Made by a program: the position numbers and the translations under genes. A DNA stretch of 64,000 nt from Escherichia coli (lineage in GTDB: Bacteria; Pseudomonadota; Gammaproteobacteria; Enterobacterales; Enterobacteriaceae), in the NCBI RefSeq assembly GCF_048403405.1, contig NZ_CP183129.1, one strand, 5' to 3'. A model generated the notes under the pieces. It was not told where the DNA came from. It worked only from the letters and a program-made list of their open reading frames with translations, and made no database searches. Shown here one piece after another: positions 55,787 through 56,455 of the stretch; within the stretch, counting starts at the first letter, position 1; every line of letters begins with the position of its first letter.

Positions 55787-56200
55787 CATTACTGAACACT
55801 AAAACCTGACGCACATCACAACATTAGAACGAACAGTTCATGAACCAATAAGCGTAACATCGAGTGATTTATGGACAGCGTTTAACACAGTTATGAACCA
55901 AAACTGAGTTCATAACTGTGAGTTTGAATCGCCATTTGATTAATATCCATTTAAAACAGTTTGTTATGCTGTTTCTGGTGCTGAAGTCAATTATGTATAT
56001 CCCTCAAACCCAGAATAGTTAAATGGAATTTGAGTGATGCGAAGCGATTTTCCAGTCGTCGTTATTACTTCAGGGTTCCAGAACATAAAGCCTCTCCTCT
56101 TTCATGATTGGCCTGTGCATACCGGATATAGGCTGGCTGGTATGCAGGTTTGCCGTTTGCCGCATCTTCCCTGCGTTGAAGAGTCAGGCTGGCAAACCGC

Positions 56201-56455
56201 GTGCAAATGAACACCCCCACTTTCCATCAACACTTCAGACAGCTTGCGGGAATGAGTCCACTCCGGTATCAGAAATGGCTACGCCTCAATGAAGCCAGGC
56301 GACTGATGCTGAATGAACATTACGATGTCACCACTGCAGCCTATGCTGTCGGTTTCGAAAGCTTATCCCATTTCAGTCGGGAATATTCGCGGATGTTTGG
56401 AGAGTCACCTAAGAGAGATATTACCAGGTTAAGAAAGTCTGTCGGTCAGCTTTAA
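56201..56455 (+). pseudogene. yneL: AraC-family regulator, C-terminal HTH fragment only (yneL-like)
   Basis: 84-aa ORF with the second AraC HTH (…AYAVGFESLSHFSREYSRMFGESP…); in-frame stop 8 codons upstream of its GTG start, so no N-terminal domain. Confidence 0.7.

What the first reader, a model, noticed from the sequence alone, without database searches (positions are those of the whole stretch)
55787..56455. AraC C-terminal fragment (yneL) marks a rearrangement scar between the detox island and the fimbrial operon
Only the second HTH of an AraC regulator remains, with an in-frame stop 8 codons upstream of its GTG. The 414 bp upstream has no coding potential for the missing N-terminal domain. 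The same truncation exists in K-12, so the lesion predates or accompanies the island and fimbrial-operon differences.
Basis: partly seen in the sequence, partly recalled or inferred. Interest (0 to 1): 0.3.

Follow-up and report, generated by a model that had tools for sequence, protein, structure and literature searches.

The report
Dead AraC gene relic beside dif
The AraC fragment is real but is only the last piece of a decayed three-gene cluster that sits beside the chromosome's dimer-resolution site (dif); the "empty" DNA upstream of it is the end of a mobile island inserted exactly at the edge of dif, plus scraps of two other dead genes.

Summary
The ORF (56201-56455), its in-frame TGA (56177-56179) and its AraC-type HTH are confirmed. 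It is a pseudogene, not a sequencing error: 923 of 5,426 complete E. coli genomes carry the same junction.

- The fragment keeps residues 217-304 of a 304-aa AraC_N-type regulator: the recognition helix of HTH1 plus all of HTH2.
- The 414 bp upstream is a patchwork. It holds the AT-rich right end of a 7.4-kb island (55787-56017), a 7-bp copy of the end of dif (56018-56024), the first 23 codons of a DUF2255 gene (56025-56086, minus strand) and codons 228-246 of an alpha/beta-hydrolase gene (56127-56185, minus strand).
- K-12 carries a different, independent deletion: breakpoint 56246, a frameshift, and other hydrolase pieces retained.

The island boundary lies 164 bp upstream of the AraC breakpoint, and island-free strains share that breakpoint. 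The island therefore did not truncate the gene.

A perfect dif lies at 48568-48595. The detox island (48596-56017) abuts its XerD arm. It shares both termini with 33-kb integrase-bearing (GInt-type) islands at the same site.

Intact DUF2255-hydrolase-AraC clusters lie beside dif in Enterobacter, Citrobacter and Klebsiella.

The parts
48568..48595 (+). dif, the 28-bp XerC/XerD chromosome dimer-resolution site (GGTGCGCATAATGTATATTATGTTAAAT). Its last 7 bp, GTTAAAT (48589-48595), are the left copy of the repeat that flanks the island.
   Evidence: Exact match; 0 matches in 100 shuffles. It lies 77 nt after hipA, as in K-12, O157 and other strains. The literature places dif between hipA and yneL (bioRxiv 10.1101/2025.09.02.673814).
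48596..48663 (+). Left terminus of the island. It contains the terminal inverted-repeat arm TGGGTTTG (48600-48607) and an AAGTTCATG motif.
   Evidence: 88-90% identical to the first 66 nt after dif of the 33-kb integrase-bearing islands of VTB96935v (L016) and CD45 (L020), with nothing else shared in the interior. Found in 634 genomes. The same sequence abuts the XerD arm of a plasmid Xer site (L027).
48664..55786 (.). Island cargo ('detox' genes): LysR regulator (internally deleted here), DJ-1/PfpI protein, two aldo/keto reductases, amidohydrolase fragments, NAD(P)H oxidoreductase, ABM monooxygenase, carboxymuconolactone decarboxylase. No recombinase gene.
   Evidence: PGAP annotation of the near-identical strain TUM14771. 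Pfam hits. ORF list.
55787..56017 (+). Right terminus of the island: non-coding, 36% G+C. It contains the palindrome GTTCATGAAC (55836-55845), a conserved 13-bp-stem hairpin (55886-55898 / 55908-55920) and the terminal inverted-repeat arm CAAACCCA (56005-56012).
   Evidence: 72-78% identical, with these motifs conserved, to the right ends of the L016 and L020 islands, which carry unrelated cargo. Present in 556 genomes. Hairpin; G+C.
56018..56024 (+). GTTAAAT, the right copy of the 7-bp direct repeat (the end of the dif XerD arm) that flanks the island.
   Evidence: Empty sites read dif|CATGTCTGAG. Occupied sites read dif|island...AGAATA-GTTAAAT|CATGTCTGAG (L016), and likewise in the window.
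56025..56122 (-). 5' relic of a DUF2255 gene: start codon at 56086-56084, about 23 codons with one frameshift, cut off at the dif edge. Its ribosome-binding and upstream region is 56087-56122. The first 6 nt (56025-56030) are hypervariable between strains.
   Evidence: Window 56061-56105 is 91% identical to the DUF2255 start region of Enterobacter vonholyi (L024 6953-6996, E=9e-12) and K. pneumoniae (L010, E=6e-12). Translated matches are MFWNPEVIT / DDWKIASHH against MYWNPEVLT / DDLKIAPYH. Pfam DUF2255 on the Klebsiella protein, E=1e-37. This stretch is shared by K-12, O157 and all other non-B2 configurations examined here.
56127..56185 (-). Internal fragment (codons 228-246) of an alpha/beta-hydrolase gene, antisense to the AraC fragment.
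   Evidence: 95% identical to E. coli CI5 L013 4001-4055, inside a 365-aa alpha/beta-hydrolase CDS. 92-93% identical to the homologues in Klebsiella, Citrobacter and Enterobacter. The minus-strand translation ...LQRREDAANGKPAYQPAY matches ...LQRWEDAANGKPAYQPAY.
56188..56455 (+). 3' third (residues 217-304) of an AraC_N + HTH_18 regulator gene: the yneL / ECs2114-type pseudogene. The mechanical ORF is GTG 56201 to TAA 56455; the in-frame TGA is at 56177-56179.
   Evidence: 89% nt identity to the full-length 304-aa gene of E. coli CI5 (L013 6816-7084). 85-88% to Citrobacter, Enterobacter and Klebsiella genes. Pfam. PGAP pseudogene call. dN/dS is 0.41-0.45 among E. coli fragments against 0.03-0.16 among intact genes.

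Best explanation
The interval 55787-56455 is a stack of relics in the variable slot on the XerD side of dif.

1. The AraC fragment is the dead 3' end (residues 217-304) of an AraC_N-type regulator. That regulator belonged to a small cluster: DUF2255 (minus strand), alpha/beta-hydrolase (minus strand), sometimes an alcohol dehydrogenase, and the regulator (plus strand, divergent from the hydrolase).

2. In the window's lineage the cluster lost three pieces:
- everything between dif and DUF2255 codon ~23;
- the stretch from the DUF2255-hydrolase spacer to hydrolase codon 246, joined at a short homology ATAG(G/C)CTGG;
- about 2.7 kb from hydrolase codon 228 to AraC codon 216. This removed both 5' ends, the divergent promoter region, the whole sensor/dimerisation domain and the first quarter of the DNA-binding domain.
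What is left cannot work as the original regulator and is drifting.

3. K-12-type strains reached a similar end state by a different single deletion, from the last three hydrolase codons to AraC codon 235, plus a frameshift.

4. Separately and later, a 7.4-kb island integrated exactly at the outer edge of the dif XerD arm, with GTTAAAT on both sides. Its two termini are those of GInt-type islands (a multi-recombinase operon plus cargo plus an AT-rich 3' end) found at the same site in other strains. The window's copy has lost the recombinase operon.

Shown: the homologies, collinearity, breakpoints and shared termini. Inferred: the order of events, recombinase-mediated integration, and non-function of the ORF.
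For: A full-length homologue maps only to 56188-56455.

The window pieces 56061-56105, 56127-56181 and 56189-56457 map collinearly, in the same orientation relative to dif, onto E. vonholyi L024 at 6953-6996, 7907-7961 and 10649-10917. The K-12 pieces map to dif, 6953-6997, 7395-7476 (hydrolase 3' flank and terminator) and 10706-10917.

Intact clusters lie 0.1-3 kb from dif in Enterobacter sp. MGH24, E. vonholyi, C. youngae and K. pneumoniae.

Each E. coli type keeps cluster sequence that the other lacks, so neither derives from the other.

The AraC breakpoint is identical in island-free O157:H7 and ECCNB12-2.

Relaxed constraint: dN/dS is 0.41-0.45 against 0.03-0.16, with substitutions at positions invariant in the intact genes. 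There is a frameshift in the ~3,200 K-12-type genomes. Further deletions occur in GPEC464, N3 and B strains, and B2 strains with an intact F9 operon lack the fragment altogether.

Island evidence: dif at 48568-48595; precise insertion with GTTAAAT repeats; the 8-bp terminal inverted repeat TGGGTTTG/CAAACCCA; both termini shared with L016 and L020, which carry a four-gene operon (507, 556, 845 and 167 aa) annotated as integrases.

Hochhauser et al. list hipA-ydeT as hotspot #20, with GInt-type elements in strains H3 and S43 (PMC10121019). GInts are described as a gin operon plus cargo plus a short AT-rich 3' end with imperfect flanking repeats (PMC5385486).
Against: No E. coli genome among the 5,426 keeps the intact cluster at this locus. 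The ancestral state is therefore inferred from other genera and from an 89%-identical copy elsewhere in 86 E. coli genomes.

dS between genera is low for this gene (0.16-0.7), so the cluster is probably itself horizontally mobile. 'Orthologous remnant' may really mean 'remnant of an older dif-linked island'.

Sequence support for the recombinases is weak: Phage_integrase E=0.01-0.04, NCBIfam integrase_1 E=2e-24 but below its cut-off, and nothing for the 845-aa protein.

The flanking repeat is only 7 bp.

Non-function of the 84-aa ORF is inferred. One paper reports array signal for yneL (PMC9308461).
Confidence: 0.82

Rival explanations
1. One reading: insertion of the detox island, or a rearrangement between it and the fimbrial operon, cut the AraC gene. 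K-12 carries that same lesion.
For: The fragment lies between the island and the F9 operon. K-12 also has a truncated AraC gene (yneL) at this locus.
Against: The island ends at 56017. The AraC breakpoint is at 56186/56188 and is fused to a hydrolase fragment, not to island DNA. The same breakpoint is present without the island. The K-12 breakpoint is 56246, with different retained pieces and a frameshift.
Confidence: 0.04
2. The 84-91-aa ORF is a functional stand-alone AraC-like mini-regulator of the downstream F9 fimbrial operon. This was considered for ECs2114 in EHEC Sakai.
For: The ORF is open in the window- and O157-type alleles. It has the same orientation as fimA/fmlA and lies 433 bp upstream of it. 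It is described as a putative regulator in PMC7766294. Array expression is reported for yneL (PMC9308461).
Against: It lacks about 23 residues of the DNA-binding domain and the whole N-terminal domain. dN/dS is raised, and residues invariant in intact genes are replaced. It is frameshifted in about 3,200 genomes, and absent in B2 strains that keep an intact F9 operon. Its 5' region gave no induction in the Sakai reporter. In other genera the intact gene is paired with a hydrolase, not with fimbriae.
Confidence: 0.07
3. The island was integrated by the host XerC/XerD recombinases as an IMEX (integrative mobile element exploiting Xer), not by GInt-type recombinases.
For: It abuts dif and lacks any recombinase gene. 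The right end carries ...ATTATGTATAT...AATAGTTAAAT, which loosely resembles pieces of dif. The same left end abuts a plasmid Xer site.
Against: The reconstructed joint CAAACCCAGAATA-GTTAAAT-GTGGTGGGTTTG has no XerC arm and matches only 7 of 11 bp of the XerD arm. The crossover lies outside the dif central region. Sister islands with the same termini carry their own multi-recombinase operon next to the left end.
Confidence: 0.12
4. Sequencing or assembly error has split an intact AraC gene.
For: None beyond the in-frame stop near the start of the ORF.
Against: The same sequence occurs in hundreds of independently finished genomes. The upstream DNA is homologous to other genes, not to AraC.
Confidence: 0.01

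Closest known systems
yneL (b1506) of E. coli K-12 / ECs2114 (Z2199) of EHEC
   Same: Same locus, between dif/hipA and the F9 (ydeQRST) operon. The 3' part (56246-56455) is homologous at 95-96% nt identity. It is annotated as a pseudogene or cryptic AraC-like CDS.
   Different: The window allele matches the ECs2114 type (breakpoint 56188, open frame). It differs from K-12 yneL, which has its breakpoint at 56246, a 1-bp frameshift, and the hydrolase terminator retained instead of hydrolase codons 228-246.
AraC_N (PF06719) + HTH_18 regulators, e.g. WP_000622442.1 of E. coli CI5. From my own knowledge, YqhC, the aldehyde-responsive activator of yqhD, is the characterised E. coli member of this architecture.
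   Same: The C-terminal 88 residues are 89% identical at nt level to WP_000622442.1. The intact homologues are divergently paired with an enzyme gene (hydrolase, with or without an alcohol dehydrogenase), the usual layout for this class.
   Different: The window has no AraC_N domain, no helix 1 of the DNA-binding domain and no promoter region. The comparison with YqhC is from memory and was not tested here.
[quoted passage not shown] 2017
   Same: Site-specific insertion, short imperfect flanking repeats, variable cargo and a short AT-rich 3' end with conserved stretches. Sister islands at the same site carry a four-gene recombinase-like operon at the 5' end. GInts are recorded at the hipA-ydeT hotspot.
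   Different: The window's island has no gin genes at all, only 68 nt of the 5' end. The target here is the outer edge of dif, or of a plasmid Xer site. I did not find that target described in the GInt papers I searched.
IMEXs (CTX-phi, TLC-phi, GGI) and IS1202-family insertion sequences that target dif/pdif flanks
   Same: Mobile DNA that ends up next to a Xer site and leaves a functional dif.
   Different: IMEXs recombine within dif using XerCD and carry a dif-like attP. IS1202-type elements are DDE transposons that land 5 bp from the XerC arm. Here the junction is at the outer end of the XerD arm, and the related full-size elements encode tyrosine-recombinase-like proteins.

Membership tests
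AraC/XylS family DNA-binding domain | About 100-residue domain with two helix-turn-helix motifs (Pfam HTH_18 / HTH_AraC) | tested here: met
   HTH_18 E=1.3e-22 (profile positions 6-76 of 80) and HTH_AraC E=4e-9. The fragment aligns to solved AraC-type domains from about their residue 24-36 onward. The domain is N-terminally incomplete.
AraC_N (PF06719)-type regulators | N-terminal AraC_N sensor/dimerisation domain preceding the HTH domain | tested here: not met
   Present in the full-length homologue (residues 31-182, E=1e-44). Absent from all six frames of 55001-57000. The window holds only a relic of a former member.
K-12 yneL lesion (same event) | Identical deletion breakpoints and flanking relics | tested here: not met
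   Window breakpoint is 56186/56188 with hydrolase codons 228-246 retained. K-12 breakpoint is 56246 with the hydrolase terminator and last 3 codons retained, plus a 1-bp deletion.
[quoted passage not shown] | ginABCD operon (three tyrosine-recombinase-like genes plus a small gene) at the 5' end | tested here: not met
   The window island has no recombinase gene. Sister islands L016 and L020 have a co-directional operon of 507, 556, 845 and 167 aa next to the shared left end. PGAP names two of these genes integrases, but profile support is weak.
[quoted passage not shown] | Short, poorly conserved AT-rich 3' end with conserved stretches | tested here: met
   55787-56017 is 36% G+C. The palindrome, hairpin and terminal CAAACCCAGAATA are conserved across three islands that are otherwise 72-78% identical there.
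[quoted passage not shown] | Site-specific insertion flanked by short imperfect direct repeats; variable cargo | tested here: met
   Three cargo types sit at exactly the same position, dif|...|GTTAAAT. The perfect repeat is 7 bp, shorter than the 10-17 nt imperfect repeats described in PMC5385486.
[quoted passage not shown] | Excision to a circular intermediate that depends on the gin genes | not testable with these tools
   Needs PCR or long-read detection of the attL x attR joint.
IMEX (integrative mobile element exploiting Xer) | Element attachment site resembling dif (XerC arm, 6-bp centre, XerD arm) with crossover in the central region | tested here: not met
   The reconstructed joint has no XerC arm, and 7 of 11 XerD-arm positions match. 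The junction is outside the dif core, and dif is left perfect.
Insertion sequence / transposon remnant in 55787-56200 | Transposase relic, multi-copy terminal repeats, target-site duplication | tested here: not met
   No transposase homology. The segments are single-copy per genome (median 1 place). No IS-like terminal repeats were found within the interval. The only repeat is the 7-bp GTTAAAT that flanks the whole 7.4-kb island.

The most novel reading that the evidence does not exclude
A family of GInt-type islands, including recombinase-less derivatives such as this detox island, specifically targets the outer 7 bp (GTTAAAT) of the XerD-binding arm of dif and of plasmid Xer sites. This would make the XerD flank of dif a multi-genus accessory-gene slot in Enterobacteriaceae. 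yneL, the DUF2255 scrap and the hypervariable hexamer next to dif would then be footprints of repeated insertion, excision and deletion at that slot.
Probability: 0.5. Interest if true: 0.55.

Novelty: new member of a known kind. Interest (0 to 1): 0.38.

Why it matters
- The fragment should not be treated as a candidate regulator of F9 fimbriae. It is the relic of a regulator that was paired with a hydrolase.
- yneL is shown to be the visible tip of a decayed gene cluster linked to dif. Different E. coli lineages lost that cluster by different deletions, which gives a usable lineage marker.
- The known hipA-ydeT 'defence-island hotspot' is pinned to a single position, the outer edge of dif. 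A recombinase-less metabolic island is tied to the GInt-type elements that use this position.
- If the targeting is real, mobile elements exploit one of the most conserved non-coding sequences of the chromosome without destroying it. This is directly testable with integration assays.

Tried and rejected
- Upstream AraC frames. I first read the upstream frames (GYRLAG... / IGWLVCRF...) as frameshifted AraC sequence, with a 5-bp insertion and a 7-bp tandem duplication. I rejected this when 56127-56185 proved 95% identical to the interior of a hydrolase gene. The TTTGCCGTTTGCCG 'duplication' is native to that gene.
- Rfam scan of 55500-57000: no hit at E<=1.
- Promoter/terminator scan: counts no higher than in shuffled sequence.
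- Repeat search within 55600-57000: no IS-like ends.
- Word-index protein search: returned only short fragments, no full-length relative. The full-length gene came from noisy Klebsiella assemblies and then from E. coli CI5.
- K-12-type as a derivative of the window type. I rejected this once the K-12-specific 112 nt proved to be the hydrolase 3' flank.
- Pairwise BLASTP among the three large proteins of the island operon, and a PDB sequence search: nothing significant.
- Plasmid hit to the right end (L018): sits among IS debris and is uninformative.

Full report
**Observation**

The window is E. coli: 55000-57500 is 100% identical to strain TUM14771. The ORF runs from GTG 56201 to TAA 56455 (84 aa), and an in-frame TGA lies at 56177-56179. 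The product matches HTH_18 (E=1.3e-22, profile positions 6-76 of 80) and HTH_AraC. PGAP annotates 56189-56455 as a pseudogene 'missing N-terminus'. The stretch 56018-56245 recurs in 923 of 5,426 complete E. coli genomes, so this is not an assembly error.

**What the AraC piece is**

A word-index protein search found only short relatives. A Klebsiella relative led to a nearly full-length gene broken by assembly noise. A clean 304-aa gene was then found in E. coli CI5 (WP_000622442.1). It has AraC_N at residues 31-182, HTH_AraC from residue 204 and HTH_18 at 217-291.
- Homology to the window starts sharply at 56188 (89% nt identity) and covers residues 217-304.
- No frame of 55001-57000 matches residues 1-216.
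- Against solved AraC-type domains, the fragment lacks about the first 23 residues of the DNA-binding domain.

It therefore keeps the HTH1 recognition helix and all of HTH2, not 'only the second HTH'.

**What the 414 bp upstream is**

Four different things lie there.
- 56127-56185 is 95% identical to the interior (codons 228-246) of an alpha/beta-hydrolase gene. That gene lies 2.1 kb upstream of the CI5 regulator, on the opposite strand.
- 56025-56122 is the start of a DUF2255 gene on the minus strand. Its ATG is at 56086-56084, and about 23 codons remain with one frameshift. It is 91% identical over 45 nt to Enterobacter and Klebsiella (E about 1e-11).
- 56018-56024 is GTTAAAT.
- 55787-56017 is the end of the island (see 'The island and dif' below).

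**The ancestral cluster**

A scan of species-representative genomes with the full-length protein returned Citrobacter youngae, Enterobacter vonholyi, Enterobacter sp. MGH24 and Klebsiella michiganensis. In three of these, and in K. pneumoniae, the cluster lies 0.1-3 kb from a dif site, on its XerD side, in the same orientation as in the window.

The window and K-12 pieces map collinearly onto E. vonholyi.

| Piece | Window | K-12 (locus L002) | E. vonholyi (L024) |
|---|---|---|---|
| dif | 48568-48595 | 5766-5794 | 5601-5629 |
| DUF2255 start | 56061-56105 | 5830-5874 | 6953-6997 |
| Hydrolase 3' flank and terminator | absent | 5914-5988 | 7395-7476 |
| Hydrolase interior | 56127-56181 | absent | 7907-7961 |
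| AraC 3' end | 56189-56457 | 6001-6211 | 10649-10917 (K-12 from 10706) |

K-12 also keeps the last three hydrolase codons. It carries a 1-bp deletion in the second HTH. Each type retains cluster sequence that the other has lost. They are therefore independent deletion derivatives of a fuller ancestor that had already lost most of DUF2255.

Short homologies sit at the window's junctions:
- ATAG(G/C)CTGG at the left junction;
- GCGTTGAAGA against GTGTTGAGGA near the right junction.

Further decay is seen in other strains:
- a 14-bp deletion in ECCNB12-2;
- loss of the whole fragment in GPEC464;
- fusion to fimA in N3 and B strains;
- replacement of 56018-56475 by unrelated DNA in B2 strains.

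Rough frequencies across the 5,426 genomes are about 920 with the window/O157 junction, about 3,200 with the K-12 junction, and the rest with none. An intact but only 89%-identical copy of the cluster lies elsewhere, near intS, in 86 genomes.

**Is the ORF alive?**

- Among intact genes from five genera, dN/dS is 0.03-0.16.
- Among the E. coli fragments it is 0.41-0.45, and all three window-versus-ECCNB12-2 differences are non-synonymous.
- Changes hit positions that are invariant in the intact genes.
- The divergent promoter region was deleted with the N-terminus.
- Published work calls yneL a pseudogene with variable configurations (PMC9308461).
- No induction was seen from the ECs2114 upstream region (PMC7766294).

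I conclude that it is a drifting relic. The numbers are small, and expression was not tested here.

**The island and dif**

A perfect dif lies at 48568-48595, 77 nt after hipA. In island-free genomes dif is followed directly by the DUF2255 relic (K-12: dif|CATGTCTGAG...). In the window, 7,422 bp (48596-56017) lie between dif and a second GTTAAAT.

The first 66-68 nt and the last ~240 nt are shared with 33-kb islands at the same position in VTB96935v and CD45, and nothing in between is shared.
- Those two islands carry Hachiman, restriction and other defence cargo, plus a four-gene operon (507, 556, 845 and 167 aa) annotated as integrases, next to the shared left end.
- The ends carry an 8-bp inverted repeat: TGGGTTTG at 48600-48607 and CAAACCCA at 56005-56012.
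- The right end is 36% G+C and has a conserved hairpin at 55886-55920.
- The left end occurs in 634 genomes and the right end in 556.
- On plasmid pEC581_1 the same left end abuts the XerD arm of a plasmid Xer site, AGTGCGTATAA-GATTGA-TTATGTTAAAT|.

This matches the published description of GInts: a gin operon, cargo, a short AT-rich 3' end, imperfect flanking repeats and high site specificity (PMC5385486). Hochhauser et al. list hipA-ydeT as hotspot #20, occupied in 62 of 783 genomes, with GInt-type elements in strains H3 and S43 (PMC10121019).

Profile support for the recombinases is weak, and the window's island has none. I therefore call it a recombinase-less derivative with GInt-type termini, not a GInt. 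Xer-mediated (IMEX) integration is less likely: the reconstructed joint has no XerC arm, and the crossover lies outside the dif core.

The island boundary (56017) and the AraC breakpoint (56186/56188) are different events, 164-170 bp apart. The AraC breakpoint also exists without the island. The fragment does mark a rearrangement-prone junction. The organiser of that junction is dif, and the AraC lesion is an older internal deletion of a hydrolase-regulator cluster.

**Novelty**

Already known:
- yneL as a pseudogene;
- the hipA-ydeT hotspot;
- GInts.

I did not find these points in the papers searched:
- the origin of yneL as the collinear relic of a dif-linked DUF2255-hydrolase-AraC cluster;
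- the independent deletions in different lineages;
- the placement of the hotspot at the outer 7 bp of dif;
- the link between the detox island and GInt-type termini.

The library lacks most subscription journals, so prior description cannot be excluded.

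Noticed in passing
window 48568-48595: A perfect 28-bp dif site lies 77 nt downstream of hipA. The whole 'detox island' sits between it and the yneL relic.
   Followed up: yes
window 56025-56030: The six bases right after GTTAAAT differ strongly between strains: CATGTC in K-12, CGTATC in O157, TGAATT in ECCNB12-2, GGAATT in the window. The next ~50 nt differ by only about 15%. K-12 keeps the ancestral DUF2255 codons (D-M). This could be footprints of element insertion and excision, as described for GInts and SEs.
   Followed up: partly
window ~49057 (LysR gene, ORF 49005-49436, minus strand): The island's LysR regulator gene has a ~350-bp internal deletion relative to the otherwise 99.97%-identical island of TUM14771: a 143-aa ORF against 299 aa.
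   Followed up: partly
L027 (plasmid pEC581_1) 8967-9036: A plasmid Xer site (AGTGCGTATAA-GATTGA-TTATGTTAAAT) is followed directly by the same element left end (GTGGTGGGTTTGCTCTTAAGTTCATGAG...). 49 plasmid places match this end in E. coli.
   Followed up: partly
L017 / L005 (B2-type strains); window 56476-56497: B2 strains have a different 7.6-kb island (hydrolases, CMD, LysR, SDR), or a 408-bp remnant of it, directly after dif, with their own shared termini. It replaces the whole yneL relic. Its left end resembles the sequence after dif in Enterobacter vonholyi and part of the plasmid sequence. One right junction falls at GTTAGTT (window 56491-56497), which resembles the GTTAAAT core.
   Followed up: partly
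L024 (Enterobacter vonholyi) 12757-12870: A second, isolated copy of the last ~33 codons of the AraC gene lies 1.8 kb downstream of the intact gene. This is another scar of the same kind in another genus.
   Followed up: no
L013 (E. coli CI5) 3639-7083: An intact hydrolase / alcohol-dehydrogenase fragment / AraC cluster lies near intS among prophage debris in 86 E. coli genomes. It is 89-95% identical to the relics at dif. Low dS between genera (0.16-0.7) suggests the cluster moves horizontally.
   Followed up: partly
window 56127-56190; protein P0002: A variant seen on 87 contigs reads ...HTGYRLANRVQM..., which implies loss of the hydrolase-derived stretch between TATAGGCTGGC (56127) and CAGGCTGGC (56183). 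This creates an in-frame 120-aa ORF. Other variants (P0003, P0004, P0009, P0010) carry small indels in the same stretch.
   Followed up: no
window 56708 onward against K-12 (L002 6462): K-12 and relatives have a separate deletion from 56708 into the usher gene. It removes fimA, the chaperone and the usher N-terminus, leaving the ydeT fragment. The window has the complete F9 operon.
   Followed up: partly
L003 (O157:H7 H2495) 4788-5897: In O157:H7, hipA is truncated at its N-terminus and hipB is missing, while dif and the window-type yneL junction are intact. The XerC side of dif is therefore also rearranged in some lineages.
   Followed up: no
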